Below, one piece after another: positions 1 through 37,041 of a stretch of 42,991 bases of DNA. The translations under genes and the position numbers were made by a program. A model generated the notes under the pieces. That model worked only from the letters and a program-made list of their open reading frames with translations. It did not search any database and had not been told where the DNA came from. Source of the DNA: Candidatus Levyibacteriota bacterium. GTDB lineage: Bacteria > Patescibacteriota > Microgenomatia > Levybacterales > UBA12049. The DNA lies in NCBI GenBank assembly GCA_013816255.1, contig JACDET010000007.1, forward strand, positions 1-42,991, in the 5' to 3' direction. Every line of letters begins with the position of its first letter. Position 1 is the stretch's first letter.

Positions 1-273
1 CGCCCAGTCATTCCAGACAAAGACGAGCGGTAAGATATGATTGAGTGGTAACCAGACGCTACCGAGTTGCGCGAGACCTGGTTCCTGATTATCTATGACA
101 AGACGTGCAATGTTCATATGAGACATCGCGTCGTTGTAAGTTGTGATAAGACCGCTTACATATGAGATATACCAAGCGATAATACTGAGAAGTGTAACGG
201 GGAGCAGATTTTCAAACGCAAAAAGTCTATTAAAATTTTTAAAATTAAAAATATTTGTTAATGTATCTTTCAT
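1..273 (-). CDS. N-terminal fragment (truncated by window edge) of a polytopic membrane protein of the YND-SH-IAR family (GT-C-like); third paralog in this window
   Basis: Absent from the ORF track because it runs off the window. The reverse complement of 273..1 starts with ATG and reads MKDTLTNIFNFKNF...GLITTYNDAMSHMNIARLVIDNQEPGLAQLGSVWLPLNHILPLVFVWNDWA. This is collinear with YNDARSHLDISRRV..LGSVWLPLPHLL (17077..18705) and YNDSMSHLNIARFV..LGGVWLPVPHLL (32918..35503). Confidence 0.75.
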   Translation of the reverse strand, partial: MKDTLTNIFNFKNFNRLFAFENLLPVTLLSIIAWYISYVSGLITTYNDAMSHMNIARLVIDNQEPGLAQLGSVWLPLNHILPLVFVWNDWA

Positions 274-287
274 AGATCTTTAGATAT

Positions 288-352
288 TGTCATGCTGAAC
301 TTGTTTCAGCATCTCTATTTGTATGGGATCCTGAAACAAGTTCAGGATGACA
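288..352. repeat. Two GTCAT-box hairpin elements in inverted orientation (units 288..316 and 327..352)
   Basis: Unit 1 is tGTCATgctgaa-cttgt-ttcagcATCTCT. Unit 2 is the reverse complement of tGTCATcctgaa-cttgt-ttcaggATC. Each has an 8-bp stem and a 5-nt loop. They lie between the stop of 361..2577 and the start of the next minus-strand gene. Confidence 0.7.
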
Positions 353-360
353 GTATTAAT

Positions 361-2577
361 TTAAGCTGCTGCTCCAGCAATCTGTGATTTGTTGCCTTGC
401 ACCAAACCTGTTCCTGTTGGATCATTATCGACTGTGTCCAGATGCAAACCGTGTTGTGTTTTGTGCCAGTAGTGAGGTTTGAAAACGAACTCCCAAATCG
501 CAAGCCCTGCGGCAATACTCATTCCCAACCAATAAATAGGTGTCAAAAGAGCAAATGGTACGAGTCCCCATTGTTCACGTTTGGCTGCTCCAAGCATGTA
601 GTAATACATGTAGAGGAAGTTTCCGATGAACATTGAGAAGACAGCCATATAGAAAATCGGTGCGAGATAGAGTGATTTAATGAACTCCCCTGTCCACGGT
701 GTGAATGCAAAATATGCAATCGTCATAAGCCACATGATTGGATTGATAAGCATTGAAAGAATTTTGCCTCCGATAACGAGTTGGAAGATAAAGAAATCTT
801 GTGGTCTTTTCTGCGTAAAGAATGCTTGCGGGTTACGCATATGCACGAAATATGTTTGGATATATCCTTTGATCCATCGTGAGCGTTGCTTGACCCAATT
901 GAATGTATCTGAATTAGCTTCTTCCATTGTTGTTGAGTTAATTAAAGCAGTTCTGTATCCGATCTTTGTCAAACGCATGCCAAGATCAGCATCTTCGGTT
1001 ACATTAAACGGATCCCATTTTTGCAGTCTAATGATGTCTTTTGTACGGAAATGGTTACTCGTTCCGCCCAAAGGTATTGGCGCGTGAATTGATTGCAAAC
1101 CTGACAGGACCAAATTGAACCAGAGTGAATATTCGATTGTAAACATACGAGTCAAAAGGTTTTGATCAGGATTGTAGAAGTTCAATTTCGCTTGCAAACA
1201 AATGATGTTTTTCTTCGCTTTTTTGAAGGCTAATACAGCTTTTTTGAGTTGTAACGGGTCGGGAACATCTTCCGCGTCAAAGATCACAGTGTATTCGCCA
1301 GTTGCTTTAATCAGTCCATAGTTGCACGCCTTTGGTTTGGTTTTTGGTTTTGATTCAGGGACGATAACGACATCGAAGTAGAATGGAAGATTCATCATAG
1401 CTATCTTATCGATACTTTCAGTATCTTCACTTTCCAGAAGTAGCATAACTTGTAATTTATCTTTTGGATAATCTAATTGACTCATCGCTTTCACAAATTG
1501 TGGCAATACTTCCCATTCTTTATACAGTGGGCATAGCACTGTATAGGTAGGCCATGCTGACTCAGGAATCTTATTGATACTGCGCGCTGTGATATTTATT
1601 TCCGCTTCTTTAAAGTAACTGCGATAGATTAAAAAGAAGTTAAAGAGCAAATCAGTGAAATAAACAACTGTCAAAACAGATATGAAAACAACAAGCGTTG
1701 TGTGCCAGTTGAGAACGAGTCCTAAAATGATTGCTGTTATGAGTCCACCAAGGACCGCATATTGCAATGTTGTCATGCGGGTTAACGCACTTTCACCAAT
1801 GGTAAGATTGGTGTGGTGAATGTACTCGTTGCCGCGCATGTGAAACCCTTGCCCTTTATTATCAGTATCTTTTTGTGAGAAAGGTACAATGCCGTTATCT
1901 TTAAATTTCAACGCAACTGCACTTAATCCAATTTCCAGCGATGAGCGGACAACTGCAATTTTTGAAGTACCTGCATGACGTTTTGCGAAGTCGACATCAA
2001 CACTTGCAACTGTGTATCCAGCATGTCGTGCCTTCAGTAAGAATTCGAGATCAAAGGTCCATGATGAAGGATTGAGTTCAAAATGATTAACCAAACTTTT
2101 TCTAAAGACTTTTAATCCAGACTGGACATCTTCTGAGAATCCATGGAGCAGTTTTGAGAACATATGGTGATAAACTTTACTCATCACGCGACGAAGCATT
2201 CCCGCTTCATATTTATTTCTGTTGGCAATGACGATATCAGCGCCACCATTGATCTTTGCAATCATTTCTGGAATATACTTTGGTTGGTATTGCAGATCAG
2301 CATCAATCATGCAAAGCAGTTCATACTTGGCGTACCCAAATCCTTCAAGGAGTGAATAGGCTTTTCCTTGCTTTCCCTTTTTGGTGTGGAGTTTGATTGG
2401 GTATGTCTTTGATAATTCTTTAATAATTGCAACTGTTCTATCGGTTGACCGGTCATCGACAAAAACTATCTCATATTTTTGGACACTGCCGATGAGTGCA
2501 TAGTTAATTTGCTCGACAAGCGGTCGGATATTTTTCTCCTCATTCCAAACTGGTACAATAATAGATATATTTTTCAT
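361..2577 (-). CDS. Bifunctional GT2: N-terminal polyprenyl-phosphate sugar synthase-like module (GtrB/ArnC/DPM1 type), TM helices, and a C-terminal processive GT2 synthase module
   Basis: N-terminal motifs: IIVPVWNEEKNI, VDDRSTD, IDADLQYQP. C-terminal motifs: FDAEDVPDP, FNVTEDADLG, QRSRWIKGY (D,D,D,QxxRW). The ORF-track start at 2586 is TTG. The first ATG is 2577 (MKNISIIVPV). Confidence 0.85.
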   Translation of the reverse strand: MKNISIIVPVWNEEKNIRPLVEQINYALIGSVQKYEIVFVDDRSTDRTVAIIKELSKTYPIKLHTKKGKQGKAYSLLEGFGYAKYELLCMIDADLQYQPKYIPEMIAKINGGADIVIANRNKYEAGMLRRVMSKVYHHMFSKLLHGFSEDVQSGLKVFRKSLVNHFELNPSSWTFDLEFLLKARHAGYTVASVDVDFAKRHAGTSKIAVVRSSLEIGLSAVALKFKDNGIVPFSQKDTDNKGQGFHMRGNEYIHHTNLTIGESALTRMTTLQYAVLGGLITAIILGLVLNWHTTLVVFISVLTVVYFTDLLFNFFLIYRSYFKEAEINITARSINKIPESAWPTYTVLCPLYKEWEVLPQFVKAMSQLDYPKDKLQVMLLLESEDTESIDKIAMMNLPFYFDVVIVPESKPKTKPKACNYGLIKATGEYTVIFDAEDVPDPLQLKKAVLAFKKAKKNIICLQAKLNFYNPDQNLLTRMFTIEYSLWFNLVLSGLQSIHAPIPLGGTSNHFRTKDIIRLQKWDPFNVTEDADLGMRLTKIGYRTALINSTTMEEANSDTFNWVKQRSRWIKGYIQTYFVHMRNPQAFFTQKRPQDFFIFQLVIGGKILSMLINPIMWLMTIAYFAFTPWTGEFIKSLYLAPIFYMAVFSMFIGNFLYMYYYMLGAAKREQWGLVPFALLTPIYWLGMSIAAGLAIWEFVFKPHYWHKTQHGLHLDTVDNDPTGTGLVQGNKSQIAGAAA

Positions 2578-2584
2578 TTTTAAC

Positions 2585-2615
2585 AAAAAAGCCCAACTAC
2601 ATATAATAGTCGGGC
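2585..2615 (-). terminator. Intrinsic-terminator-like hairpin plus U-run, ending 8 nt upstream of the ATG of 361..2577
   Basis: The minus strand reads GCCCGAC-tattatatgta-GTTGGGC-tttttt-gttaaaa-ATG. The stem is 7 bp including one G.U pair. Confidence 0.5.
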
Positions 2616-3650: not shown

Positions 3651-6293
3651 TTATTGTTTGCTTGCTAGTTTTGGTGAGCTCCAGAGATTTGGGAGGTCGT
3701 TGTTATAGAGTGCTGTGCCGAACCAGACCCAATTCTGGGTGTAATAACTCGTCGGGTCTTCCCAATAACTCCCCTCTTTATCTTCATACAACTTATTAAG
3801 AATTTTTTCTTCATAGATCTTTTTGGCATTTGTCTTATCAGTTACGACAAAGTTACCGAGGTTCGATGCGTATGCACCTGCTGCTTCATATTCTTCCCAC
3901 GGTTTTCCATCATGTGTATATGCGACGTCGATCTTTCCTTTTTCTTTCCATTCTTTGCGTATAAAATCACTCTTGGTTAAATACGCTTTTGCTCTTGGTT
4001 CTTTGAACCATTGATAGTCAAGAGCAATTCTCCACGGTGTGCGAAAAGCGTCATATGAATATTCAGTCGAGTTCAAACCTTCATCAGGTGATTTGATAAT
4101 TTTACCAGCACTATTGACTGCGCACCAGTTTGGAGCAAGTCCAACGGACGATTCTTTATCTAAATTGCTTTCACTACATGCATTGAGAACCTCATACGAT
4201 GAATTCACAACACTCAACCAATTATGTTCTGTATCGATTTCTGCAAAGATTCGGTAACTGGCCGGCATCAAATATGAAGGGTTTACGATTGCTGAGCTCT
4301 TGGCTTTTGCCCAATCTCCGGCAACCAGATAGGGTTTGCCGCGTACTACTTTTATCTCTTGATCCCAAATACCATTGATTACAGACCTTGCTTCGGCAAT
4401 ATATTGCGGGTTATTCCAGCGTTTACCAGCAAAAGCCAACGCTAGTGCGATATCCTGATCGCCATCCGTTGCTGAACTCTTATCCAGAACTCCTGGTGTG
4501 CCGCCAGCCGTCTTTCCCCATTTCCAAGAGAAAACATTACTTTCTTTTTGCATATTTCGTTTGGTGAATCCCCAAGCTCTATCAAATGTTTCTTTGTCGT
4601 TCATCCATACAGCCCGAAGCATTGCATAGGACTGTCCTTCTGACGTGGTTTGGTTACTTGCCGGATCAACGGTGTTTCCATCCTCCTCAATAAACGTCTG
4701 CTTGTATGTTTCCCATGTTGATACAAGAATTCTTCGAGAATTTTTTACTGCCCAGATTTGCACATACCATCCGTCTCCTGTGAAACTTGTAATTGGATTT
4801 GATTGTGCCAAAGCATTTCCTGTCATTGGTAACTCCCCTGTTCCCAAATCTCCTCCAATAAGTGGTGTGAAGAGAATGTAGTCGATATTGTTGTAGTCAT
4901 TATTGAGCACTTTTTCTTTGATATCACGGTCTCCATCAACTTTCCAATAATACTCTGCGTTTTTAAAATTCCCATCATTTCTAAAGTTTAGATCTAAGTA
5001 CGCATAGTTATCTATCGCAATAAATTCTGTAGGCATTTTGCGTGACAGTATCCACTCTACTGCTTCGATTTGCGCGTCAGTTACATTTGATCGATATATA
5101 TCAAACCTATCAGAACGTATCGATGATGAGAAGTCAGTAAGCGTAATTCCCATGTATCCGAGGAAGGCAAGAACTGGGAAAATAGCGTACAATTTCAACG
5201 GTACAAATTTCATCTTCCAGAAAAAGTTCGTCGCAACATAGACAACGTATGCAGTTGTCAGTGATATGAGGGGTATCAGCGGGACGATGTAGAATTCAAG
5301 AACCAAACCTCCTCTGAGTAAAAATGCCCAATAAGAAAGAGCGAAGCCACCAATGATTCTTGCCGCAACGCTTTTGATTGCGAGAAGTAATGTAATCACA
5401 GTCGAAGCAGCACCAACAAGTAAAATTGCGGGATCATCATTTTTCCAGTTGTTGGTCATTTCCCAAAAACTCGATTTGGGATTCCAAATGTCGACATTAC
5501 CTCGACTTGCTTGAAAATCTAACGTCCCCAAAAGACTGACGTGCTCATTGGTTCCACCAAGTGGCGTTCCTGCTGGAAAGAATTCACCTTTGAACATACT
5601 GAATACGAAATAGAGTGAGATGAAGCATCCCGCAATAGCAATCCATTTAATTGTTCCAAAAAGTCTATTAACTTTATGGAGTTGGCTGTACACAAGTACA
5701 GCGAGAAACGGCAAGAAAAAGATAGCAGATTCTTTACTCAATACTGCGATACCAAAACTCAATGCACTGGCAATAATCCAGCGAAGTTTTTGCTTACTGT
5801 AGAGAATAAATGCAAGCGAAATGAGTAGCCAGAAAACCATGATATTATCAAGAAGCACACGTCTTTGAAAGTAAATTGCCAGAGGAGACAGTGAGAACAT
5901 CAGAACAGAGAACGCTCCAACCATCTTTGAGCCAGTAATTTTTTTGCCCACAAAATACAAAAGGAGTGCTGAAGCAATATGCAAAATAAGCATAAGCACA
6001 CGACCCGAATTAATTGAGAATCCGAACGTAAAAAGACCTCCGGTTAACTTAAGCCAAGCCGCAATAAGAAACCAACCAATAGGTGCATGATCGTACCAAT
6101 AGGTATATGGAGCTAATTTACCTTCACTAATAATTGACCACGCTTGCGACATGTAGGTACCTTCATCAGATTCATAATATGGGTAGCCAAACATGTTATA
6201 GCCGTGCGAAACCCCAGCAACAACTAAGACTGCGATAATGATAATCCATTCAAAGGTTTTACTTTTGAAAAATTGTTTTAGTTTATGTAACAT
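3651..6293 (-). CDS. Fusion protein: N-terminal GT39/PMT-like polytopic glycosyltransferase (GT-C) plus C-terminal GH8 endoglucanase-like domain
   Basis: N-terminal YYESDEGTYMSQAW..YDHAPIGW (DE-motif loop of PMT/ArnT-like enzymes) with about 12 TM segments. C-terminal TSEGQSYAMLRAVW and SATDGDQDIALALAFAGKRW are BcsZ/GH8-type blocks. Confidence 0.8.
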   Translation of the reverse strand: MLHKLKQFFKSKTFEWIIIIAVLVVAGVSHGYNMFGYPYYESDEGTYMSQAWSIISEGKLAPYTYWYDHAPIGWFLIAAWLKLTGGLFTFGFSINSGRVLMLILHIASALLLYFVGKKITGSKMVGAFSVLMFSLSPLAIYFQRRVLLDNIMVFWLLISLAFILYSKQKLRWIIASALSFGIAVLSKESAIFFLPFLAVLVYSQLHKVNRLFGTIKWIAIAGCFISLYFVFSMFKGEFFPAGTPLGGTNEHVSLLGTLDFQASRGNVDIWNPKSSFWEMTNNWKNDDPAILLVGAASTVITLLLAIKSVAARIIGGFALSYWAFLLRGGLVLEFYIVPLIPLISLTTAYVVYVATNFFWKMKFVPLKLYAIFPVLAFLGYMGITLTDFSSSIRSDRFDIYRSNVTDAQIEAVEWILSRKMPTEFIAIDNYAYLDLNFRNDGNFKNAEYYWKVDGDRDIKEKVLNNDYNNIDYILFTPLIGGDLGTGELPMTGNALAQSNPITSFTGDGWYVQIWAVKNSRRILVSTWETYKQTFIEEDGNTVDPASNQTTSEGQSYAMLRAVWMNDKETFDRAWGFTKRNMQKESNVFSWKWGKTAGGTPGVLDKSSATDGDQDIALALAFAGKRWNNPQYIAEARSVINGIWDQEIKVVRGKPYLVAGDWAKAKSSAIVNPSYLMPASYRIFAEIDTEHNWLSVVNSSYEVLNACSESNLDKESSVGLAPNWCAVNSAGKIIKSPDEGLNSTEYSYDAFRTPWRIALDYQWFKEPRAKAYLTKSDFIRKEWKEKGKIDVAYTHDGKPWEEYEAAGAYASNLGNFVVTDKTNAKKIYEEKILNKLYEDKEGSYWEDPTSYYTQNWVWFGTALYNNDLPNLWSSPKLASKQ

Positions 6294-8775: not shown

Positions 8776-8943
8776 TAAAGTCTGCCTCAGTATCCGGTTT
8801 TTGTAAAGAACTGGAAAGATAAATTGCCTCTTTACTATAAGACTTTTTTATGGTACACTGCACCATATAGGATATCTTTGCTATGGGATTCATTCCATAG
8901 CACATATAAGAATCTTGTAACCATAAAACAGTATAAAATACAT

Positions 8944-14464: not shown

Positions 14465-14511
14465 TTTGACATCCATCCCTTTATGTGATACAATTCTGCC
14501 AACCTATAACT

Positions 14512-18809: not shown

Positions 18810-18873
18810 AAAAGTAACTATCCCTGTGTTTTATATGAATTTCGATCCGTTATTGAGTATAATGATATGAGTG

Positions 18874-22625: not shown

Positions 22626-22633
22626 GTATTGGT

Positions 22634-28534: not shown

Positions 28535-29304
28535 TAATCTACGGAGAGTATTTTTGACCAAACGCCATTGATTACATCAAAAGGTTTGCTCGTAAATTCT
28601 TTCTTCTCATCAAGAAGAAGAGTCATTTCTTCATTATGAAGGAGGTTCTCACCATCATCTTTATTTTTTAACGTGAAAAACACACCAATCTTACTTTCTT
28701 TATCATCAGGATTAATTTTTTTGTCCGGGCTAAGATTTGAGAAATTTAGTTCGACAAATTGGCTGAGTCTTTCACTATATGCAGTAATAGAATCGAGATT
28801 CATTACTTGTTTATACTCTTGATCTGAAAGTTCAATATAAAACCTTGTATCTTCATTTGTATAAATTGTATAGAGCCTATCGGATGGATTTACTGTTTCA
28901 CCTTCAGAATAATTTACTTCAGAAACATAGCCAGATACTGGGGAAACAATTTCTAATTGCTGTGCTGCTTGTGATGCAACTGCGAGTTCTGTTTTTGCAG
29001 ATAGATTGTTGGTAGCAGCTGATAACACTTTTATTTTGCTATCTAATTCTGGATTGATTAATTCTACGATCTTGTCACCTTCTTTTACTTTTTCGCCTTC
29101 GTTAAAATATATTTTTGAAACATTACCTCTTGCTTCAGCAATAATGATTGAATCTTTCTTATCAATTGTTCCAACAATAACTCCAGTAGCATTATTATAA
29201 TCTGTCATTTTCTTTGACAAAGCATATGTGGAAATCCCAAAAGCCACAATCACAACGAGTGCAATAATTGAGATATTTAATAATGTAACAACAAATTTAC
29301 TCAT
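28534..29304 (-). CDS. HlyD-like membrane-fusion/adaptor protein
   Basis: Single N-terminal TM segment. GNVSKIYFNEGEKVKEGDKIVEL, a short helical hairpin, then IVSPVSGYVSEVNYSEGETVNPSDRLYTIY (split lipoyl-like motif). The ATG at 29304 forms an ATGA overlap with the upstream stop. Confidence 0.7.
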   Translation of the reverse strand: MSKFVVTLLNISIIALVVIVAFGISTYALSKKMTDYNNATGVIVGTIDKKDSIIIAEARGNVSKIYFNEGEKVKEGDKIVELINPELDSKIKVLSAATNNLSAKTELAVASQAAQQLEIVSPVSGYVSEVNYSEGETVNPSDRLYTIYTNEDTRFYIELSDQEYKQVMNLDSITAYSERLSQFVELNFSNLSPDKKINPDDKESKIGVFFTLKNKDDGENLLHNEEMTLLLDEKKEFTSKPFDVINGVWSKILSVD

Positions 29305-30788: not shown

Positions 30789-32766
30789 GCTTCTCCTTTC
30801 TACCGACCTTTTCAACAAGTCTATATATTAGTAGTGATGCGCCGGTAAAAAATATTAAGAATAAAGATACATAATGACTGATCGGCCACGTATGCTTCAA
30901 CACGAGTGTCCCGCCATTTGTATCTCTGACATCGACCAACATGAAGTTGGGTCCAAATGATGAGACTGAGACTTCTTTATCGTTGATATATGCTCTCCAC
31001 TGCGGATCATAACTTTCATTAACGAATAAATATGGTAACGTATTACCCGATGGGATTGCAACATTAACTTGATCATTTGAAGGATAAATAACATTTACAG
31101 GTTTACCAGACTGTTTAAATTCAGACATATATGTATTGACTAACTCGTCTAGTTGTTTTTGATCTTTGTTACTGAGAATATCTACTTCTTTTGGGAAATG
31201 TGGGAGTTTTAACGAGTTTTCATTAACAAGAAAAGCATTGGTAATTTCCCAGTTCATTTTTATATAATTAAAATCTTCATATTTTCCTTCAATTAGTTTA
31301 ACCTGTTTAATATTTTCTTTATTGTTTTCTATAAATGATTTACCAAGTAAATTGTCATTATTTAATAAAATATATTTTGTACCTGTTAATTTTAAGTAAT
31401 TATTTATAGTCTCTGTTGAAGATAAGGTTAAATTTTGCTCTTGGTTTGTATAAAGTAAATGCTGAGTTAGTCTCTGAGCAACTGAATTAGGTTCTAAATG
31501 CGCCATATAAGAGTAAGGAGAACTAACATCAGAATCAGCATAATAACTTGAAGATCCAATGTATGGACTCCATACTTTACCTTCCGTGAATGGTTCAGGA
31601 ATGTTATGTTCATAAACAGACTTGATCGGATCATTGACTTGATATTGGGGAGTAGGCGAATAAATTGTGGCATACCAAAGATTATCTACAAAAGCGATTG
31701 TCAAAAATAATATTAGTACCAATTTAACTATTAGAATCTTTGACTTAACTATGTATTCAATTAAAGATGCAATCACAAATAGCATACTAATACCAATGAA
31801 GAAAACACCTCTTGGAAATTGAGTTTGTGATATAAAATGTGGAAGCTCAAATTGTACTCCAACTATGACGAGTAATAAGTAAAGAGATGCAAAGATATAT
31901 AATACTTTCCCCCAACTTAAATTAGCTGTATTTTTAAAGAGAACAAGTATAGTAGTTGCAAATAACAATAATATAGTTAAATTTAATCCGTAAAATTCAT
32001 ATGTCTGTAAAGCAAGAGCCAAAAACTCTCTCGTTGAATAATAACTATGAGGAAAAGTATAGTTGCTTACTTGAAGTAACGGTAACCAAAATAACGATGA
32101 GGTAGCTAAAATTATTAAAAACTCAATTAATATACTTTTAGATAAAACTGTTTTATTTGAAAGAATATTTCCTAAAAGCCATAATGCAATTAATGAGAGG
32201 CCTAAGATTGGATGTATGTAGAATGATAATCCAATACTGTACACAAAGAATAAACTTATTTTATTGTTATAATATAAAATCCATAAATATATAAATAGAG
32301 GAGAAAATGTAAAAGCAAACATCAATGAATATTCATTAACTCCTTGCCAAAATTGAGCAATACTTAAAGACAATAATGAAATTACGAATGCTGTAAATGT
32401 TCCAAAATTTAATAAGCGCATTATTATGTAAATAAATACTCTTAATAGTACAAATTGAGCTACTGTAAGATAAATCATCGCAGTAGTAATAGATAATCCA
32501 AATGCTTTAACTACAAATAATGTAATTATGTGTGGTACAAATTGGTAAGAGTTCCAAATTGAAATTCCATTTGACCAGTTGTGTATCCATGAAGTGTATC
32601 CGTATTGATCTAAAATCTGTATTCTAAATGCATGCGCCATCCAGTCTTCGTATCCAGGGCTTAAAATTTCACCTTGCAAAAGAAAAGCAGAGATTGAGAA
32701 GGATATGATGATGAGGACAGCAACGAGAAAGATATCTAACAGATATTTTTTAATTATACTTGACAT
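30775..32766 (-). CDS. Large polytopic membrane protein with a C-terminal extracytoplasmic domain (possible GT-C/YfhO-like), function unknown
   Basis: About 13 TM segments in the first ~380 aa. The first loop has GYEDWMAHAFRI (D-x3-H-x2-R). The C-terminal ~280 aa are soluble, with a final TM segment. Confidence 0.45.
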   Translation of the reverse strand: MSSIIKKYLLDIFLVAVLIIISFSISAFLLQGEILSPGYEDWMAHAFRIQILDQYGYTSWIHNWSNGISIWNSYQFVPHIITLFVVKAFGLSITTAMIYLTVAQFVLLRVFIYIIMRLLNFGTFTAFVISLLSLSIAQFWQGVNEYSLMFAFTFSPLFIYLWILYYNNKISLFFVYSIGLSFYIHPILGLSLIALWLLGNILSNKTVLSKSILIEFLIILATSSLFWLPLLQVSNYTFPHSYYSTREFLALALQTYEFYGLNLTILLLFATTILVLFKNTANLSWGKVLYIFASLYLLLVIVGVQFELPHFISQTQFPRGVFFIGISMLFVIASLIEYIVKSKILIVKLVLILFLTIAFVDNLWYATIYSPTPQYQVNDPIKSVYEHNIPEPFTEGKVWSPYIGSSSYYADSDVSSPYSYMAHLEPNSVAQRLTQHLLYTNQEQNLTLSSTETINNYLKLTGTKYILLNNDNLLGKSFIENNKENIKQVKLIEGKYEDFNYIKMNWEITNAFLVNENSLKLPHFPKEVDILSNKDQKQLDELVNTYMSEFKQSGKPVNVIYPSNDQVNVAIPSGNTLPYLFVNESYDPQWRAYINDKEVSVSSFGPNFMLVDVRDTNGGTLVLKHTWPISHYVSLFLIFFTGASLLIYRLVEKVGRKEKHEVN

Positions 32767-32917: not shown

Positions 32918-35503
32918 CTAGCGTATGACAGCATTTAAATCGTCTAGATTGTATTTTCCACGACTGTCACCTTTTGGAGAGAAGCCGAAGGAATTGTCTT
33001 CTTTGATTGACCAATTCCATACCATGCTTCCACTATATCCCATGTTTCTAGCAGAGGACGAAATGTCTTGTAATGTTTCGAGTGGTTCTTTGCCGTATGG
33101 TTTGGTGTTTTTGGACACGCCGAATTCCTGAAGTAAAAGAGGTTTGCCTGCCCTGTCAGCAATACCTTTTTGTGTTGTCAGAAATGTCTTTACAGATGCA
33201 GGAGATGTGAATAATAACTTCTCCTTATCATACAAGTATACATGGACAGAACAGATATCGATATTTGGCTCGGCACATAACAGAGTATGACCCTCGTTGG
33301 TATTTGAACTTGTTCTTTCCGTACCGATAGTAAGCATATGTACATTATCAAGCGTACGAATGTATGTCGTCATCTCACCTAACCATGGCTTGATGACTGA
33401 TTTATCCTTTCCATCGATACGAGGTTCATTCATAATATCCCAGGCAAGTATTGCGGTCTCCTGCGCATATGTTTTGTGGGTTAGTGTATTTTGTCTTGTC
33501 ATAACATGATTTATATAATTTTTAAATAATGCTTTTGCTGCTTTATCAGTATAAAATGCATCTGTTTTACCCTTTGGGTTTTTTCCTATCCATCTGAGAT
33601 ATTGTTCTTTCCCGCCGTATTCAGGCCAGTTATTGATCAACACGGGAATTACCTTCATATCATATTGTTTGGCAAGTGCAAAAATAAGATCTGTGTTTTG
33701 CAATCTTTCTTCATTGAAGCTTCCAGCTGTTGGTTGAAAACTGTCTTTCGTCCCTTCTCCAAAAAACCAAAACCGCACAGTATTGACACCTGCCATGTGA
33801 AGATCATCAAATGTACTTCGTATCTCATCCTCACTTCTATATGCCAAATCGTACGAGTTAACGCCTTTAATAACAAAATCTTCTTCGCCAAAAACAATTT
33901 TTTTCTCCTCAATCCCAAGCACATAATCCCCCCGTTCTTTTAATGTAAAGATAAAAGCGTGATTTCCAGCATAGACTTGTTTATATTTTTTAAGAAACTT
34001 TTTTTTATCTTCTTTTAACGTATGATTGTACACTGATTCTCCTGTATCGCCATTGGCCATGACGACCCATTTGACGTGTTTTTCAGGGGCATCGAGGGTC
34101 TCTGCCCACATGTCACTCGCACCCTCATGAACAAATTGTTTTAACGGATGACCGCTGACAAAAGCAACTGAATTAAAAAATGAAGTTGATAAGAGAATCT
34201 TCTCATCATCCTTGACACGGTTTTTGAGCTCGCGGCCGATATCATAATTATCAAACGAACTTGAACCAATTGTTCCGTCAATAACATTGATCAAACTATG
34301 TTGTGACATGACAAAGGTTTGTATGACGATAAGTGCTACAACACCGACAGCCGCAGTTCTATGCACGCTTGCAAGCACTCCAACAAAAACAGCCACAAAT
34401 GGGAGCGCATAGATACCGTAGCGCACATTAAACCATTGTGCAGAAGGATTATTTGCTGTGTCCAAACCTAATTCAGGAACAGTAATAACCGAAAAACCGA
34501 GATATAAAGCAAGTATATTAAAAAATATCGGAGTAAATAAAAATGCAGTAATTAAAAATTTAAAAAGATTTTCTTTTGTCTTAGTAATAAAAAAATAGGA
34601 GAGTGAACCAATTATGCCAACGAACAGCATAAGTATACCGATATTACCTACCATTGAGTACCAATAGGCTTTTATTGCAATGAGTATATTATGTTTGGTA
34701 ACGAGTCCTGATTGTGCTTCAAGATTACTTTGTTGCGAATGTGCTGAATACGGGCCTGTGGCAAAATAAATGATATTATCAAAAATAAGATAATTCCACA
34801 AAAGCCAGATAGCTATCCCAAAGATCACAGGAAACGCAAAAACAGTTGTCTTTGCAGCGGCTTCTGAAAAAGCTCTCTTTTTATAAAACCACTCATAGGA
34901 CATAATCAATATCCCTTCACAGACCACAACGAACCATCCATCATAGCGGGTGAGCACTTGTAATGCGCCGAATAATCCAAGCAGTAACAGATATTTTGGA
35001 TTATCTTTTACGACATAGGCTGTAAAAGCCAAAGCAGATAATACAAAGAATGAAACATAAAGTGATTCGGTAAGCGGAGTTGCTTGTAAGTATAATATGT
35101 TTAGGTTAAGCGCAAAAGCTGCTGCGCCGATCATTGAGGCCCAAAAATTACTTGTGATGTACTGTACTATTTTAAAGACACTCAACGTCGCAACAACATA
35201 CCCAATCATCGAGAAAAGACTCCCAGCAAATCCACTATGCCATGACCAATTATCCCAGATCAATGTCATCGCAAGCAGATGTGGGACAGGAAGCCAGACT
35301 CCTCCGAGTTGCGAAAAACCTGGTTGGATATTATCAGTAACAAATCTGGCAATGTTCAAATGTGACATCGAATCGTTATACGTAATTGCTAGACCATTAA
35401 GATAATAATAATACCAAGATAAACCACTCAAGCATATAACGGTAAGTATTCCTACATACGTTAGAACTCGTTTTAAAAATTTTATTGTCAATACATTTTT
35501 CAT
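32918..35503 (-). CDS. Fusion protein: YND-SH-IAR family polytopic membrane domain (GT-C-like) plus C-terminal GH5 glycoside hydrolase (mannanase/cellulase-type)
   Basis: The N-terminal ~500 aa are collinear with 17077..18705. C-terminal ILAWDIMNEPR (acid/base) and PLLLQEFGV (nucleophile). Confidence 0.8.
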   Translation of the reverse strand: MKNVLTIKFLKRVLTYVGILTVICLSGLSWYYYYLNGLAITYNDSMSHLNIARFVTDNIQPGFSQLGGVWLPVPHLLAMTLIWDNWSWHSGFAGSLFSMIGYVVATLSVFKIVQYITSNFWASMIGAAAFALNLNILYLQATPLTESLYVSFFVLSALAFTAYVVKDNPKYLLLLGLFGALQVLTRYDGWFVVVCEGILIMSYEWFYKKRAFSEAAAKTTVFAFPVIFGIAIWLLWNYLIFDNIIYFATGPYSAHSQQSNLEAQSGLVTKHNILIAIKAYWYSMVGNIGILMLFVGIIGSLSYFFITKTKENLFKFLITAFLFTPIFFNILALYLGFSVITVPELGLDTANNPSAQWFNVRYGIYALPFVAVFVGVLASVHRTAAVGVVALIVIQTFVMSQHSLINVIDGTIGSSSFDNYDIGRELKNRVKDDEKILLSTSFFNSVAFVSGHPLKQFVHEGASDMWAETLDAPEKHVKWVVMANGDTGESVYNHTLKEDKKKFLKKYKQVYAGNHAFIFTLKERGDYVLGIEEKKIVFGEEDFVIKGVNSYDLAYRSEDEIRSTFDDLHMAGVNTVRFWFFGEGTKDSFQPTAGSFNEERLQNTDLIFALAKQYDMKVIPVLINNWPEYGGKEQYLRWIGKNPKGKTDAFYTDKAAKALFKNYINHVMTRQNTLTHKTYAQETAILAWDIMNEPRIDGKDKSVIKPWLGEMTTYIRTLDNVHMLTIGTERTSSNTNEGHTLLCAEPNIDICSVHVYLYDKEKLLFTSPASVKTFLTTQKGIADRAGKPLLLQEFGVSKNTKPYGKEPLETLQDISSSARNMGYSGSMVWNWSIKEDNSFGFSPKGDSRGKYNLDDLNAVIR

Positions 35504-35505
35504 AG

Positions 35506-37014
35506 TTAGGTTATTGCTCCTTTGGGAATTGCGTTTTGATCAAGATGCAATCCATGCTTGGTTTTACGCCACATGTGCGGCCTCTGTATCAAATCAATGA
35601 GTGCGATAATTGCACTAATACTGATCATCAACCAATACACCGGCGCCAAAAAACTGACGAGAATCAAACTCCATTGCCTCCTTTTTAAAGCACCCATCAT
35701 GTAAAAATAAATATATAAAAAATTCCCTGCAAAAAGACAAATAATTCCGAGGTAAAAAATAAATGAAGGGAAAAGAGATTCAATAAATGCACCTGATTGT
35801 CCTCTGAATGCGAAGTACACGAGTGTCAGTATCCACATGAATGGATTGACGAACATCGAAAGCACTTTGCCTCCGATGATAATTTGAAATGTCAAAATAT
35901 GAGGGTTTAGAGGATTTAAAAAATAACTGTCCATGCCCCGCATATGCACAAGATATGTTTGCATATATCCCTTGATCCAACGAGAGCGCTGTTGGAACCA
36001 ATTCATCAGATCACTATTGGCTTCCTCAAGCGTGGTCGAATCCAAAATTGCAGTCTTGTAACCATTCTTGAATAATCTCATTCCTAAATCTGCATCTTCT
36101 GTAACATTAAAAGGATCCCATCCATTAAGTTTTTGTAAATCGCTAATTCTGAAGTGATTTGATGTGCCACCTAGAGGTATCGGTGCATTAATCGATTGCA
36201 ATCCTGGAAGAATGAGGTCAAACCAGAGGGAATATTCAACTGAAAATAAGCGGGTCAAGATATTCTGATTGGGGTTATAAAAATTAAGCTTTGCTTGTAT
36301 ACACACAATGTCACGCGGCAACGTGTGAAACGCAATGAGGACCTTTTTTAATTGCTGTGGATCTGGCACATCTTCAGCATCATAAATGACTGCGACATCT
36401 CCTTTTACTTTACCTAATGCATAATTAAGTGCTTTTGGTTTTGTTTTGGGAAATGAGTGAGGAACCACAAGTATTGAAAAATACTCAGGGAGGTTTTGTT
36501 TGTTCGCTCGTTCTATTGTTTCTTTATCATCTTCTTCGAGTAATAACACAGCCTTTAATCTGTCTTTGGGATAATCTAACGCTTGTATAGCTTTCACAAA
36601 CTGTGGCAATATTTCCCATTCTTTATAGAGTGGACAAAGAACCACATATATTGGTAATTGGTATGCATGCAGTGCAGCAATATGTTTGTTCGCTATTTTT
36701 ATTTCAGGATTTACCGTAAAACTCCGTATCATCAAAAAGAGATTAAAGAGTAAATCAATAAAGTAAAAAATCGTCAGTGCACTGACCGTCACAATGAGCG
36801 TCGTGTGCCAATTTGTCGTGATTGTGTAGATATACGCGGTTACAAGAATAATGAGTACAACAAATTGGAGAAGACTAAATCGTACAAGAGCAGTATTCTT
36901 CCAATGTAAAGATGTGTGCGGTACAAATTTTTTCCCTTTGTAATGGAATCCTTTTCCTTCAATTTTTTCTTGTTCAATTGAGAAGGCTTCAATTTTCTCG
37001 TTGAAGTTAAACAT
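35506..37014 (-). CDS. Processive GT2 synthase (stand-alone member of the QRSRW-KGY subfamily)
   Basis: Motifs YDAEDVPDP, FNVTEDADLG, QRSRWIKGY. The track start at 37029 is TTG. The first ATG is 37014 (MFNFNEKIEAF). Confidence 0.85.
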   Translation of the reverse strand: MFNFNEKIEAFSIEQEKIEGKGFHYKGKKFVPHTSLHWKNTALVRFSLLQFVVLIILVTAYIYTITTNWHTTLIVTVSALTIFYFIDLLFNLFLMIRSFTVNPEIKIANKHIAALHAYQLPIYVVLCPLYKEWEILPQFVKAIQALDYPKDRLKAVLLLEEDDKETIERANKQNLPEYFSILVVPHSFPKTKPKALNYALGKVKGDVAVIYDAEDVPDPQQLKKVLIAFHTLPRDIVCIQAKLNFYNPNQNILTRLFSVEYSLWFDLILPGLQSINAPIPLGGTSNHFRISDLQKLNGWDPFNVTEDADLGMRLFKNGYKTAILDSTTLEEANSDLMNWFQQRSRWIKGYMQTYLVHMRGMDSYFLNPLNPHILTFQIIIGGKVLSMFVNPFMWILTLVYFAFRGQSGAFIESLFPSFIFYLGIICLFAGNFLYIYFYMMGALKRRQWSLILVSFLAPVYWLMISISAIIALIDLIQRPHMWRKTKHGLHLDQNAIPKGAIT

Positions 37015-37041
37015 CAGCAGCAAATACAAACGTATCGACGG

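What the first reader, a model, noticed from the sequence alone, without database searches (positions are those of the whole stretch)
1..37029. Very dense modular glycan factory: six processive GT2 synthase modules, each next to its own hydrolase and/or GT-C membrane partner
Within 37 kb I count:
- Six modules with the D,D,D,QxxRW signature of processive beta-glycan synthases: the C-termini of 361..2577 and 6357..8570, the N-terminus of 8944..12414, and 24296..25900, 29301..30788 and 35506..37014.
- Five to six GT-C-type polytopic proteins.
- Four glycoside-hydrolase families recognisable by catalytic motifs (GH8, GH26, GH81, GH5).
- A CE4 deacetylase, a pyruvyl transferase, a GT4 and a HlyD-like adaptor.

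The synthase-plus-cognate-hydrolase logic of BcsA/BcsZ appears to be repeated with four different hydrolase families. Several partners are physically fused. A single small-genome-style locus predicted to make several distinct beta-glycans, with polyprenyl-phosphate-sugar supply and GT-C transfer built in, is not an arrangement I recognise from characterised systems.
Basis: partly seen in the sequence, partly recalled or inferred. Interest (0 to 1): 0.8.

Follow-up and report, generated by a model that had tools for sequence, protein, structure and literature searches.

The report
Patescibacterial cell-envelope beta-glycan synthesis island
A small-genome, uncultured (Patescibacteria) bacterium packs six membrane sugar-polymer synthases into 37 kb, each in a conserved operon with a matching polymer-cutting enzyme and/or a lipid-sugar-using transferase; the parts are known kinds, but the way they are combined and fused has not been studied.

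Summary
Seventeen genes (about 30 of 37 kb) encode glycan enzymes. They include:
- six GT2 modules with intact D / DxD / (T/S)ED / Q(Q/R)xRW motifs and flanking TM helices;
- six GT-C proteins, plus a seventh cut by the left window edge;
- catalytically intact GH8, GH26, GH81 and GH5 domains;
- CE4, CsaB, GT4 and a HlyD-like adaptor.

The source is a Patescibacteria (Microgenomates-type) genome. The pairings are conserved operons at 30-50% identity:
- GT2 → GT-C~GH8;
- GT2 → GT-C~GH5;
- GT-C – BcsA-like – HlyD – GH81 (same order in every locus with enough sequence);
- BcsA-like → GH26 (41 of 80 loci, many phyla).

Two synthases carry an N-terminal domain closest to dolichol-phosphate-mannose synthase, ArnC and GtrB.

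The nearest solved hydrolases are BcsZ, a GH26 lichenase, GH81 β-1,3-glucanases and GH5 β-mannanases. This suggests four different β-glycans.

Best reading: synthase-dependent secretion modules combined with "three-component" extracytoplasmic glycosylation. Each component logic is known (Bcs, Xcs, Ccs, GtrB/GT-C). The fused combination is uncharacterised but widespread, so this is a new variant of a known kind. Products and processivity are inferred only.

The parts
1..261 (-). 5' part (about 87 codons) of a further family-Y GT-C gene, cut by the window edge. It is the downstream partner of 361-2586 (module M1).
   Evidence: tblastn: aa 1-87 of the 32918-35503 protein match nt 261-1 at 45% identity, E 1e-26. 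L008 and L009 show the same gene order, GtrB-like~GT2 followed by GT-C~GH5.
361..2586 (-). M1: two-domain GT2. An N-terminal polyprenyl-phosphate glycosyltransferase (DPMS/ArnC/GtrB-like, aa about 1-230) and TM helices are fused to a family-A synthase-type GT2 (QRSRW at aa 567) with C-terminal TM helices.
   Evidence: Pfam, NCBIfam, PDB 5mlz DPMS at 8e-26, motif alignment, TM prediction.
3651..6293 (-). M2: GT-C (PMT_2/GT39-like, aa about 1-390) fused through a small alpha/beta domain to a BcsZ-like GH8 endoglucanase (aa about 519-880).
   Evidence: PMT_2 6e-12 and GH8 4e-48. BcsZ NF008305 2.4e-39. Invariant D43-E44 and near-invariant E41 just after TM1; near-invariant E552, D610, D612, D614 in the GH8 domain. 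AF2 pLDDT 92.5; Foldseek finds BcsZ at TM 0.82-0.85 and STT3/AglB for the N-domain. More than 1000 homologues.
6357..8570 (-). M2: DPMS-like polyprenyl-phosphate glycosyltransferase domain fused to a family-B synthase-type GT2 (QRTRW at aa 578). This is the conserved upstream partner of GT-C~GH8.
   Evidence: Pfam and NCBIfam. PDB 5mlz 3e-32. BcsA 1.6e-8 for the C-terminal domain. Orthologues lie directly upstream of GT-C~GH8 in L003, L005, L006 and L105.
8824..12414 (+). M3: family-A synthase-type GT2 (QRSRW at aa 398), extra TM helices and a C-terminal GT4 (GT-B) domain. The start codon is uncertain. Similarity to the 1377-aa homologue in L003 begins at nt 9001, and that homologue's DPMS-like N-domain is missing here.
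   Evidence: Pfam, paralogy at 48-53% to the other family-A modules, comparison with L003.
12411..13298 (+). M3: small GT2 with a C-terminal TM hairpin. A possible GtrB-type polyprenyl-phosphate glycosyltransferase (tentative).
   Evidence: Glycos_transf_2 2.9e-21. Weak best PDB hits to ArnC, DPMS and GtrB (4e-6 to 5e-4). TM segments at aa 246-276. Conserved in the same position in L003 and L010-L013.
13376..14464 (+). M3: CsaB-type polysaccharide pyruvyl transferase.
   Evidence: PS_pyruv_trans 5e-28. TIGR03609 CsaB 2.9e-40, below that model's cut-off.
14485..15348 (+). M3: CE4 polysaccharide deacetylase.
   Evidence: Polysacc_deac_1 1.2e-21. Weak PgaB, PdaB and IcaB hits.
15345..17087 (+). 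M3: polytopic GT-C-like protein, family X.
   Evidence: hhalign to the GT-C domain of the GH8 fusion: probability 95%, E 4.5e-8; to family Y: 92%. NCBIfam LA_3751/2 putative GT 2.7e-13. Conserved next to family Y in L010-L012.
17077..18705 (+). M3: polytopic GT-C-like protein, family Y (stand-alone, no hydrolase domain).
   Evidence: 35% identity over 475 aa to the N-terminal domain of 32918-35503. hhalign of family Y against the PMT_2-type domain: probability 94%. Stand-alone homologues of about 530 aa carry PF13231.
18871..19860 (+). Conserved membrane-anchored or exported protein of 329 aa, function unknown. It travels with the M3 genes and the sortase in relatives.
   Evidence: No Pfam or PDB sequence match. 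50% identical homologue in L012; a 320-aa gene with no Pfam hit sits at the equivalent position in L010, though tblastn found no match there.
23259..24299 (-). M4: membrane-anchored GH26, closest to the C. thermocellum GH26 beta-1,3-1,4-glucanase (lichenase) module.
   Evidence: GH26 1.7e-16. PDB 'Endoglucanase H' 2bv9 9.6e-42 against about 1e-11 for mannanases. HEMNGNWY and LAETAS motifs. 576 relatives found.
24296..25900 (-). M4: BcsA-like synthase (family C1, QQIRW), no PilZ domain. Its stop overlaps the GH26 start by 4 nt.
   Evidence: CelA TIGR03030 2.2e-40. PDB BcsA 3.5e-28. A BcsA-like GT2 lies next to the GH26 homologue in 41 of 80 loci.
26528..28561 (-). M5: membrane-anchored GH81 (family of endo-beta-1,3-glucanases).
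   Evidence: Glyco_hydro81C 3e-51. D440, E515 and E519 conserved in at least 95% of 41 homologues. 495 homologues.
28534..29367 (-). M5: HlyD-like membrane-fusion/adaptor protein.
   Evidence: HlyD_D23 and HlyD_3. RND_mfp TIGR01730 1.3e-16. Conserved position in the operon.
29301..30818 (-). M5: BcsA-like synthase (family C2, QQNRW), no PilZ domain. This is the closest of the six to cellulose synthase.
   Evidence: CelA 6.8e-82, 275.6 bits against a cut-off of 699. PDB BcsA 2e-52.
30775..32766 (-). M5: 663-aa GT-C-fold protein (YfhO-like). First gene of the operon.
   Evidence: No Pfam hit itself. 2 of 61 family members hit Pfam YfhO. AF2 pLDDT 92.8. The top 24 Foldseek PDB matches are all GT-C enzymes, with PglB at 1.9e-7. 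Only 142 cluster representatives among 1.84e9 proteins.
32918..35503 (-). M6: family-Y GT-C domain fused to a GH5 domain closest to endo-beta-1,4-mannanases.
   Evidence: Cellulase (GH5) 6.5e-17; PMT_2 at 23.7 bits, below cut-off. Homologues carry PF13231 and PF26410 GH5_mannosidase. The best 16 of 17 PDB hits are mannanases or mannosidases, 3e-36 to about 1e-12. N692-E693, E793, H754 and Y756 conserved in at least 95% of 26 homologues.
35506..37029 (-). M6: family-A synthase-type GT2 (QRSRW at aa 347). It ends 2 nt before the GT-C~GH5 gene.
   Evidence: Pfam. CelA 1.5e-21. PDB BcsA 1e-9. 56% identical to the C-terminal half of 361-2586. A GT2 lies upstream of GT-C~GH5 in L008, L009 and L107.

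Best explanation
The window is chromosomal DNA of a Patescibacteria (CPR, Microgenomates-type) bacterium. It carries an island of six operon-like modules that build extracytoplasmic beta-glycans of the cell envelope.

Proposed mechanism for each module:
1. A membrane-embedded synthase-type GT2, with its cytoplasmic GT-A domain (D, DxD, (T/S)ED, Q(Q/R)xRW) and its own TM helices, polymerises a nucleotide sugar and pushes the chain through the membrane, as BcsA does.
2. A membrane-tethered endo-glycanase of matching specificity trims or releases the chain outside the cell, as BcsZ does.
3. In most modules a GT-C-fold transferase sits in the same operon, and in three cases it is fused to the hydrolase. 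I propose that this GT-C takes a sugar from a polyprenyl-phosphate-sugar and adds it to the emerging chain outside the membrane. This is the 'three-component' glycosylation logic.
4. The polyprenyl-phosphate-sugar is made by the DPMS/GtrB-like GT2 domain fused to the N-terminus of two of the synthases, and possibly also by the small GT2 at 12411-13298.

Likely backbones, judged from the nearest characterised hydrolases:
- M2: beta-1,4-glucan.
- M4: mixed beta-1,3/1,4-glucan.
- M5: beta-1,3-glucan, with a HlyD-like adaptor.
- M6, and probably M1: beta-1,4-mannan.
- M3: a pyruvylated, partly deacetylated wall polymer (GT2~GT4, CsaB, CE4, two GT-C proteins).

Shown: the domain families, intact catalytic motifs, folds and conserved operon structure. 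Inferred: processivity, sugar identity, the acceptor of the GT-C enzymes, and how the lipid-linked sugar is flipped.
For: Domain families and motifs.

BcsA relationship.

DPMS/ArnC/GtrB relationship of the N-terminal GT2 domains.

GT-C status:
- Pfam PMT_2 above its cut-off.
- Invariant D43-E44 (near-invariant E41) after TM1.
- hhalign probabilities of 92-95% linking families X and Y.
- The AF2 model of the 663-aa protein, with only GT-C enzymes among its 24 best PDB matches, and Pfam YfhO hits in two family members.

Hydrolases:
- Catalytic residues conserved or present.
- Nearest solved structures are BcsZ, the GH26 module of C. thermocellum endoglucanase H and GH5 endo-mannanases.
- Pfam GH81 C-terminal domain at 3e-51.

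Operon conservation at 30-77% identity.

Gene spacing: gaps or overlaps of a few nucleotides inside modules.

Monoderm-type envelope context: two sortases, each next to a substrate with an LAPTG or LPNTG sorting signal.

Precedents:
- Cyanobacterial XcsA-HlyD-endoglucanase operons (PMC12430437).
- CcsA with the GH5 hydrolase CcsZ (PMC7710045).
- GT-A / flippase / GT-C glycosylation systems (PMC8035078 and PMC11127046; PMC13390465).
Against: - No biochemical data exist for any of these proteins.
- None of the six GT2 modules reaches the curated NCBIfam score of any characterised synthase. The best is 275.6 bits against 699 for CelA.
- Families A and B are only distantly related to BcsA (E 1e-8 to 1e-9), so they could be non-processive.
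- No GtrA-type flippase gene is present in the window.
- There is no BcsB and no PilZ domain, and no riboswitch of any kind (no Rfam match).
- Some modules and some relatives lack the DPMS-like domain: 35506-37029, 8824-12414, and the 420-aa GT2 in L006. The lipid-sugar supply is therefore not obligatorily in cis.
- Inferring the polymer from the hydrolase family is indirect.
Confidence: 0.6

Rival explanations
1. Prime, elongate, ligate. The DPMS-like domain does not supply side-chain sugars. Instead it makes a polyprenyl-phosphate-sugar primer. The fused synthase elongates this primer processively and exports it. This resembles synthase-dependent O-antigen synthesis and the archaeal AglJ/AglB pathway, which uses monophosphate carriers (my knowledge). 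The GT-C then transfers the whole chain en bloc to a wall, lipid or protein acceptor, and the fused hydrolase sets chain length.
For: - The lipid-phosphate glycosyltransferase is physically fused to the synthase in 361-2586, in 6357-8570 and in many relatives. Such a fusion is most easily explained if the first product is the substrate of the second domain.
- AglJ is among the NCBIfam hits of the N-terminal domains (about 6e-20).
- The best structural matches of the 663-aa GT-C include the oligosaccharyltransferases PglB, STT3 and AglB, which transfer glycans en bloc.
Against: - Several modules work without a fused DPMS-like domain.
- BcsA-type enzymes need no lipid primer (established knowledge).
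- Sequence-level hits of the fused GT-C domains are to PMT_2/ArnT-like families, which transfer single sugars from monophosphate carriers.
- The M5 operon has no lipid-phosphate GT at all.
Confidence: 0.2
2. Lipoglycan or glycolipid pathway. The QxxRW GT2s of families A and B are short-range or glycolipid glycosyltransferases. The GT-C enzymes are the real polymerases and build a membrane-anchored lipoglycan from polyprenyl-phosphate-sugar outside the cell, as in mycobacterial lipomannan and arabinan synthesis. The hydrolases remodel the product.
For: - DPMS-like plus GT-C is the hallmark pairing of such pathways (my knowledge). The structural matches include AftD, AftA, AftB and EmbB.
- Families A and B hit Glyco_transf_21 and are only remotely BcsA-like.
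Against: - All six GT2 modules keep the full synthase signature, with TM helices on both sides of the catalytic domain.
- Two of them are clear BcsA relatives, at 2e-52 and 3.5e-28.
- Endo-acting hydrolases closest to BcsZ, a lichenase and mannanases imply long beta-linked chains of the type made by GT2 synthases.
Confidence: 0.1
3. Catabolic or host-attack reading. The hydrolases are there to digest polysaccharides of a host or of the environment. The polytopic N-terminal domains are only membrane anchors, and the neighbouring GT2 genes are functionally unrelated.
For: - Patescibacteria are thought to be epibionts that depend on other cells (background in PMC8080830, listed).
- GH5, GH8, GH26 and GH81 are best known as degradative enzymes.
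Against: - The GT2-hydrolase adjacency, often with overlapping stop and start codons, is kept across lineages at 30-50% identity.
- The GT-C domains keep an invariant acidic motif and about 60 invariant positions overall, which is not expected of a mere anchor.
- The GH8 domain is structurally closest to the biosynthetic BcsZ group.
Confidence: 0.07
4. Assembly artefact. The dense arrangement is a chimera of metagenome fragments from different organisms.
For: - The window comes from a metagenome.
- G+C drops to 0.32-0.34 between 28 and 34 kb, against 0.37-0.44 elsewhere.
Against: - An independent 15-kb NCBI contig (L001) carries an identical 534-aa GT2 protein. Its called genes match window 21.1-35.3 kb in order, size and Pfam content.
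- L003, from a 1.3-Mb contig, is syntenic with window 3.6-17 kb.
- Several modules also lie together in L010-L013.
Confidence: 0.03

Closest known systems
Bcs cellulose secretion system (BcsA synthase with the BcsZ GH8 endoglucanase)
   Same: - A membrane GT2 with D, DxD, TED and QxxRW motifs is encoded next to a GH8 endo-beta-1,4-glucanase.
- The GH8 domain of 3651-6293 superposes on E. coli BcsZ at TM 0.85 and rmsd 2.7 Å.
- 29301-30818 matches BcsA at 2e-52.
   Different: - There is no BcsB, BcsC or PilZ domain.
- The GT2 next to the GH8 gene belongs to family B, which is only remotely BcsA-like (1.6e-8), and it carries a DPMS-like N-domain.
- The GH8 domain is fused to a GT-C transferase instead of being a free periplasmic protein.
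Cyanobacterial Xcs system (XcsA cellulose synthase, XcsB HlyD-like protein, XcsC endoglucanase; PMC12430437). S. meliloti BgsB/BgsA is similar (my knowledge).
   Same: A BcsA-like synthase, a HlyD-like membrane-fusion protein and a glycanase are encoded in one operon (window 26528-30818).
   Different: - The synthase has no PilZ domain.
- The hydrolase is a GH81 (beta-1,3-glucanase family), not a cellulase.
- A GT-C gene heads the operon.
- The host has sortases and cell-wall sorting signals and no detectable TolC-type partner in the window.
Clostridial CcsABZ cellulose synthase with the GH5 hydrolase CcsZ (PMC7710045)
   Same: A synthase-dependent system of a Gram-positive-type cell in which the cognate hydrolase is a GH5 rather than a GH8.
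   Different: - Here the GH5 domain is closest to beta-mannanases.
- It is fused to a GT-C domain.
- The partner GT2 is family A, often with a DPMS-like domain. No CcsB/BcsB-like gene is present.
Three-component extracytoplasmic glycosylation (GtrB/CsbB/ArnC-type GT2, GtrA-type flippase, GT-C such as GtrC, YfhO or ArnT; PMC8035078, PMC11127046)
   Same: - DPMS/ArnC/GtrB-like GT2 domains are present.
- GT-C proteins of PMT_2-like and YfhO-like types are encoded beside them.
   Different: - No GtrA-type flippase gene was found.
- The lipid-phosphate GT is fused to a synthase-type GT2, and the GT-C is fused to an endo-glycanase.
- The presumed acceptor is a synthase-made polymer, not a Und-PP-assembled glycan or a teichoic acid.
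PNAG systems (PgaC/IcaA synthase with the CE4 deacetylase PgaB/IcaB)
   Same: - Module M3 couples a synthase-type GT2 with a CE4 deacetylase.
- PgaC_IcaA is among the best NCBIfam hits of the family A and B proteins, although part of this score comes from the N-terminal GT2 domain.
   Different: - Scores are far below the equivalog cut-off (100 against 422 bits).
- M3 additionally has GT4, CsaB and two GT-C proteins.
- There is no PgaD/IcaD and no GH153 domain.

Membership tests
Synthase-type (processive) membrane GT2, BcsA/PgaC/NodC/HAS class | GT-A domain with D, DxD, (T/S)ED and Q(Q/R)xRW motifs | tested here: met
   All six modules keep all four motifs in register. Pfam Glyco_tranf_2_3 / Glyco_trans_2_3 match at E 1e-12 to 1e-35.
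Synthase-type (processive) membrane GT2, BcsA/PgaC/NodC/HAS class | TM helices before and after the catalytic domain that form a glycan channel | tested here: inconclusive
   Hydropathy predicts 1-3 segments before and 2-6 after each catalytic domain. No structure of the GT2 modules was predicted, so the existence of a channel is not shown.
Synthase-type (processive) membrane GT2, BcsA/PgaC/NodC/HAS class | Processive polymer synthesis coupled to translocation | not testable with these tools
   This needs an in vitro assay in proteoliposomes.
BcsA cellulose synthase (equivalog) | Score above the curated TIGR03030 / NF008558 cut-offs | tested here: not met
   The best score is 275.6 bits for 29301-30818, against cut-offs of 699 and 992 bits. 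The other modules score 50-138 bits.
BcsA cellulose synthase (equivalog) | C-terminal PilZ domain and a BcsB partner | tested here: not met
   No PilZ or BcsB Pfam hit on any window ORF of at least 100 aa. The proteins are only 505-534 aa long.
Xcs-type tripartite system (synthase, HlyD-like protein, glycanase) | BcsA-like, HlyD-like and glycoside hydrolase genes in one operon | tested here: met
   Window 26528-30818. The order is conserved in L011, L012, L094-L098 and L100.
Xcs-type tripartite system (synthase, HlyD-like protein, glycanase) | PilZ on the synthase, a cellulase-type hydrolase and a TolC-like outer channel | tested here: not met
   There is no PilZ domain, the hydrolase is a GH81, and no TolC/OEP hit occurs in the window.
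GT-C fold glycosyltransferases | Polytopic N-terminal domain with a GT-C family profile match or a GT-C fold | tested here: met
   - 3651-6293: PMT_2 at 46.5 bits against a cut-off of 26.1, plus STT3/AglB structural matches.
- 30775-32766: the top 24 Foldseek matches are all GT-C enzymes.
- Families X and Y: hhalign probability 92-95%.
GT-C fold glycosyltransferases | Conserved acidic residue(s) in the first extracytoplasmic loop | tested here: met
   - GH8 fusion: D43-E44 invariant in 62 of 62 sequences.
- Family Y: D44 in 40 of 40 and D57 in 38 of 40.
- 663-aa family: Y39 and D41 at 90% or more.
That these residues lie on the outer face is assumed from GT-C topology and was not tested.
GT-C fold glycosyltransferases | Use of a polyprenyl-phosphate-linked sugar donor | not testable with these tools
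   This is inferred from the family and from the co-encoded DPMS-like domains.
Polyisoprenyl-phosphate glycosyltransferases (DPMS/GtrB/ArnC) | GT-A domain most similar to DPMS, ArnC or GtrB, followed by TM helices | tested here: met
   - 361-2586 N-domain: 5mlz 8e-26, ArnC 1e-17, GtrB 3e-13.
- 6357-8570 N-domain: 5mlz 3e-32.
- TM segments follow at about aa 272-326.
- For 12411-13298 the match is only weak.
Three-component glycosylation system | A GtrA-type small flippase encoded with the GT-A and GT-C genes | tested here: not met
   No GtrA Pfam hit. No unassigned ORF with three or more TM segments lies inside 1-37029. A flippase may be encoded elsewhere in the genome.
GH8 / GH5 / GH26 / GH81 glycoside hydrolases | Family profile match above the gathering score, with catalytic residues present | tested here: met
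   Pfam scores against cut-offs: 164.6/24, 62.3/23.5, 61/20.2 and 175.1/25.6 bits. Catalytic residues: E552 with the ATDGDQD motif (GH8); N692-E693 and E793 (GH5); HEMNG and AETA (GH26); D440, E515 and E519 (GH81).

The most novel reading that the evidence does not exclude
The two-gene unit [DPMS-like GT ~ synthase GT2] + [GT-C ~ endo-glycanase], and the four-gene unit [GT-C – BcsA-like – HlyD – GH81], could represent a distinct and undescribed route of glycan assembly. In this route a synthase-extruded beta-glycan would be branched, or ligated to the wall, outside the cell by a GT-C whose lipid-linked donor is made by a domain fused to the synthase itself. Such compact machines might make the main non-peptidoglycan wall polymers of Microgenomates-type Patescibacteria.
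Probability: 0.3. Interest if true: 0.75.

Novelty: new variant of a known kind. Interest (0 to 1): 0.6.

Why it matters
Patescibacteria make up a large share of bacterial diversity. They have genomes of about 1-1.5 Mb and are almost entirely uncultured, and the chemistry of their envelope is essentially unknown. This genome spends about 30 kb on six synthase modules. That is roughly 2% of a genome of the size of its relatives, whose contigs are 1.3-1.45 Mb. The modules are conserved across the group, which argues that secreted or wall-bound beta-glycans are central to the biology of these cells, for example in attachment to hosts, protection or wall structure.

The conserved fusions (lipid-phosphate GT~synthase and GT-C~hydrolase) give concrete, testable two-protein units for heterologous expression. 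They would also extend the catalogue of synthase-dependent systems beyond Bcs, Pga, Pel and alginate. Finally, the wide cross-phylum pairing of a BcsA-like GT2 with a lichenase-like GH26 points to an unstudied family of mixed-linkage glucan synthases.

Tried and rejected
- Rfam scan of the whole window found nothing, so no riboswitch of any kind is present.
- tRNA scan found none.
- Pfam at E ≤ 10 gave nothing for the 663-aa, 580-aa and 542-aa membrane proteins. These were resolved only by hhalign and by structure prediction with fold search.
- hhalign of the 663-aa family against the other GT-C families gave probabilities of about 1%. It is a separate, YfhO-like lineage.
- The 329-aa protein (18871-19860) has no Pfam or PDB sequence match and remains of unknown function.
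- No remnant of an upstream GH26 gene, nor of a DPMS-like domain upstream of 8824, was found in the intergenic regions.
- A search with the 61-sequence alignment in metagenome contigs failed for lack of conserved stretches. It was repeated with 10 sequences.
- Literature searches for Patescibacteria or Microgenomates together with cellulose synthase, GT39, or GT-C/hydrolase fusions found no paper describing these modules.
- The promoter and terminator scan showed no enrichment over shuffles.
- The UbiA-family gene at 39277-40053 could not be assigned to the polyprenyl-phosphate phosphoribosyltransferases.
NCBIfam scores were used as a proxy.

Full report
**1. What is in the window**

ORF listing and Pfam/NCBIfam scans show that 17 genes between nt 1 and 37029, about 30.0 of 37.0 kb, encode glycan-active proteins. 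There are no tRNA genes and no Rfam matches. G+C is 0.32-0.44.

Homologues of the window proteins are named by their sources as Candidatus Roizman-, Woese-, Pace-, Blackburn- and Levyibacteria or 'Patescibacteria group bacterium'. The source is therefore a Patescibacteria (CPR) genome of the Microgenomates type.

An independent NCBI metagenome contig (L001, 15 kb) carries an identical 534-aa GT2 protein. Its called genes match window 21.1-35.3 kb in order, size and Pfam content. A 1.3-Mb contig (L003) is syntenic with window 3.6-17 kb. The arrangement is therefore not an assembly chimera.

**2. The six GT2 modules**

In a MAFFT alignment they line up with the upstream D, DxD (DAED in four modules, DAD in two) and (T/S)ED motifs. 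Hydrophobic segments lie on both sides of each catalytic domain.

The modules fall into three families:
- **Family A:** the C-terminal half of 361-2586, the N-terminal part of 8824-12414, and 35506-37029. They are 48-56% identical to each other.
- **Family B:** the C-terminal half of 6357-8570, 26-29% identical to family A.
- **Family C:** 24296-25900 and 29301-30818, 35% identical to each other.

Only family C is close to cellulose synthase. It matches PDB BcsA at 3.5e-28 and 2e-52, and CelA TIGR03030 at 138 and 276 bits. Families A and B match BcsA only at 1e-9 and 1.6e-8.

None of the six reaches the curated cut-off of any characterised synthase model. None has a PilZ domain, and there is no BcsB gene. 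They are members of the synthase-type GT2 class but not equivalogs of any known enzyme. Processivity is inferred.

**3. Lipid-phosphate-sugar supply**

The N-terminal GT2 domains of 361-2586 and 6357-8570 are followed by TM segments. Their best solved relatives are:
- Pyrococcus furiosus dolichol-phosphate-mannose synthase, at 8e-26 and 3e-32;
- then ArnC;
- and, for 361-2586 only, GtrB.

NCBIfam agrees, with hits to ArnC, PgfS, AglJ, PpgS and dolichyl-phosphate hexose transferase. These enzymes are all polyisoprenyl-phosphate glycosyltransferases.

The small GT2 at 12411-13298, which has a C-terminal TM hairpin, resembles the same group only weakly.

The L003 homologue of 8824-12414 is 1377 aa and carries such a domain. 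The window copy lacks it, and similarity starts at nt 9001.

**4. GT-C proteins**

- **3651-6293:** passes the Pfam PMT_2 threshold. Its family keeps an invariant D43-E44 pair, with E41 nearly invariant, immediately after TM1, along with about 55 other invariant positions.
- **32918-35503 (N-terminal domain):** 35% identical to the stand-alone protein 17077-18705 (family Y).
- **Families Y and X (15345-17087):** linked to the PMT_2-type domain by hhalign at 92-95% probability.
- **30775-32766 (663 aa):** has no profile hit and belongs to a small family of 142 cluster representatives among 1.84e9 proteins. Two of 61 members hit Pfam YfhO. An AlphaFold2 model built on 61 sequences has pLDDT 92.8. 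Its 24 best Foldseek matches in the PDB are all GT-C enzymes: PglB at 1.9e-7, then AftD, STT3, ALG12, DPY19, AglB, AftA, EmbB, ArnT, Pmt4, ALG9, AftB and ALG3.
- **nt 261-1, minus strand:** encodes the first 87 residues of yet another family-Y protein, directly downstream of 361-2586.

**5. Hydrolases**

All four families pass the Pfam thresholds, and their catalytic residues are present.

| Module | Hydrolase | Nearest characterised relatives | Evidence |
|---|---|---|---|
| M2 | GH8 domain | BcsZ-type endo-beta-1,4-glucanases, TM 0.82-0.85, rmsd 2.7 Å (model pLDDT 92.5) | |
| M4 | GH26 | GH26 module of C. thermocellum 'endoglucanase H' at 9.6e-42, against about 1e-11 for mannanases. I know this module as the lichenase CtLic26A (Taylor et al. 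2005, cited in PMC13390465). | |
| M5 | GH81 | The family of endo-beta-1,3-glucanases (established knowledge) | |
| M6 | GH5 domain | Endo-beta-1,4-mannanases at 3e-36 to 1e-20, with only a 0.003 hit to a cellulase | |

This is the basis for proposing four different backbones: beta-1,4-glucan, mixed beta-1,3/1,4-glucan, beta-1,3-glucan and beta-1,4-mannan. The proposal is an inference from hydrolase similarity only.

**6. Modules and their conservation**

- **M1:** 361-2586, followed by GT-C family Y (cut by the window edge).
- **M2:** 6357-8570, followed by GT-C~GH8 (3651-6293).
- **M3:** 8824-12414 (GT2A~TM~GT4), small GT2, CsaB, CE4, GT-C X, GT-C Y, followed by a conserved 329-aa protein, a sortase substrate and a sortase.
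- **M4:** 24296-25900, followed by GH26.
- **M5:** GT-C (663 aa), BcsA-like, HlyD-like, GH81.
- **M6:** 35506-37029, followed by GT-C~GH5.

Genes inside each module are separated by at most 77 nt, and by at most 20 nt or an overlap in most cases.

The adjacencies are conserved:
- **M2.** The GT-C~GH8 fusion has more than 1000 homologues, with full-length fusions at 42-84% identity. A family-B GT2 of 420-741 aa lies directly upstream in every locus examined: L003/L004, L005 (Roizmanbacteria, CP065004), L006/L007 (Woesebacteria) and L105/L106.
- **M6 and M1.** The GT-C~GH5 fusion has 823 homologues. A GT2 lies directly upstream in L008, L009 and L107. In L010 a family-X GT-C intervenes.
- **M5.** The four-gene order is the same in L011/L100, L012 and L094-L098, that is, in every locus with enough sequence.
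- **M4.** The GH26 protein has 576 relatives in GTDB genomes from many phyla. Of the 80 best loci, 41 have a BcsA-like GT2 within 4 kb, and in 27 it lies directly upstream. All eight loci labelled Patescibacteria, candidate Microgenomates phyla or unclassified 'bacterium' have it, in the order GH26 – GT2 – GH26.
- **M3.** Its gene set recurs in L003 and L010-L013, and different modules also lie side by side there.

**7. Mechanism**

The best-supported reading combines two established logics. Both are background from the literature, not findings made here.

The first is synthase-dependent secretion with a cognate glycanase. Examples are BcsA/BcsZ, the clostridial CcsA with the GH5 CcsZ (PMC7710045), and cyanobacterial XcsA – HlyD-like XcsB – endoglucanase XcsC (PMC12430437).

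The second is three-component extracytoplasmic glycosylation. A GtrB/DPMS-type GT-A charges polyprenyl phosphate, and a GT-C transfers the sugar outside the membrane (PMC8035078, PMC11127046, PMC13390465).

Here the two are physically merged: lipid-phosphate GT~synthase, and GT-C~hydrolase. I propose that the synthase extrudes the backbone, the GT-C decorates it from a lipid-linked donor, and the tethered hydrolase trims it.

What remains open:
- Whether the GT-C instead ligates a lipid-primed chain en bloc (rival 1).
- Whether the GT-C is itself the polymerase (rival 2).
- No GtrA-type flippase gene is present in the window.

**8. Novelty**

Every component family and each pairwise logic is known. 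The fused, recurrent combination in Patescibacteria is uncharacterised. Databases name these proteins only generically, and full-text searches found no description of them. I classify it as a new variant of a known kind.

The locus is remarkable for its density but not unique, because the modules are widespread in the group.

Noticed in passing
window 2816-3523 (-): A Y1 (IS200/RAYT-like) tyrosine transposase gene (Y1_Tnp 7e-12; REP-associated tyrosine transposase 4.5e-14) sits between module M2 and module M1. The syntenic relative L003 has no M1 at this place. The transposase may mark a rearrangement that brought M1 next to M2.
   Followed up: partly
window 8824-9001 compared with L003:3207-7337: The close relative's orthologue of 8824-12414 is 1377 aa and begins with a DPMS-like GT2 domain. 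The window copy lacks that domain, and no remnant lies in the 253-nt upstream gap. This looks like a domain loss or gain between close relatives.
   Followed up: partly
window 20410-21655 (+) and 40157-42036 (-): Two sortase genes each sit next to a likely substrate with a C-terminal sorting signal. The 230-aa protein ends LAPTG, a TM helix and RKFSK. The 415-aa ice-binding-like protein has LPNTG followed by a TM helix. This fits a Gram-positive-type wall.
   Followed up: partly
window 18871-19860 (+): A membrane-anchored 329-aa protein with no Pfam or PDB sequence match is conserved next to the GT-C pair and sortase in L012 (50% identity). A 320-aa gene without Pfam hits sits at the equivalent position in L010. 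It may be a further glycan-active enzyme.
   Followed up: partly
window 22616-23252 (+): A PIN-domain gene is preceded by an overlapping 95-codon ORF with a faint Phd/YefM-like match. This is a probable VapBC-type toxin-antitoxin pair lying between M3 and M4.
   Followed up: no
window 25916-25944 (-): A perfect sigma-70 consensus (TTGACA, 17 nt, TATAAT; 12 of 12 positions) lies 16 nt upstream of the start of the BcsA-like gene 24296-25900, inside the 627-nt gap. Overall, promoter-like sites are not enriched over shuffles.
   Followed up: no
L014-L019, L035, L036: In other Patescibacteria the GH26 module has two GH26 paralogues flanking the BcsA-like GT2 (GH26 – GT2 – GH26). The window has only the downstream GH26 and no remnant of the upstream one.
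   Followed up: partly
L020-L093 (GTDB genomes): The lichenase-like GH26 paired with a BcsA-like GT2 occurs far outside Patescibacteria, in genomes labelled Coriobacteriia, Thermoleophilia, Bipolaricaulota, delta-proteobacteria and Planctomycetales (41 of 80 loci). This is a widespread and apparently unstudied two-gene module.
   Followed up: partly
window 28001-34000: G+C falls to 0.32-0.34 over the M5 operon and part of M6, against 0.37-0.44 elsewhere. This could hint at a different evolutionary origin for these modules.
   Followed up: no
window 39277-40053 (-) and 42380-42991 (+): A UbiA-family prenyltransferase (Pfam 4e-11; no specific NCBIfam assignment) and the start of an ABC-exporter membrane domain (ABC_membrane 1e-30, cut by the window edge) lie just outside the finding. 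Either could bear on lipid-linked sugar metabolism or export, but no link was shown.
   Followed up: partly
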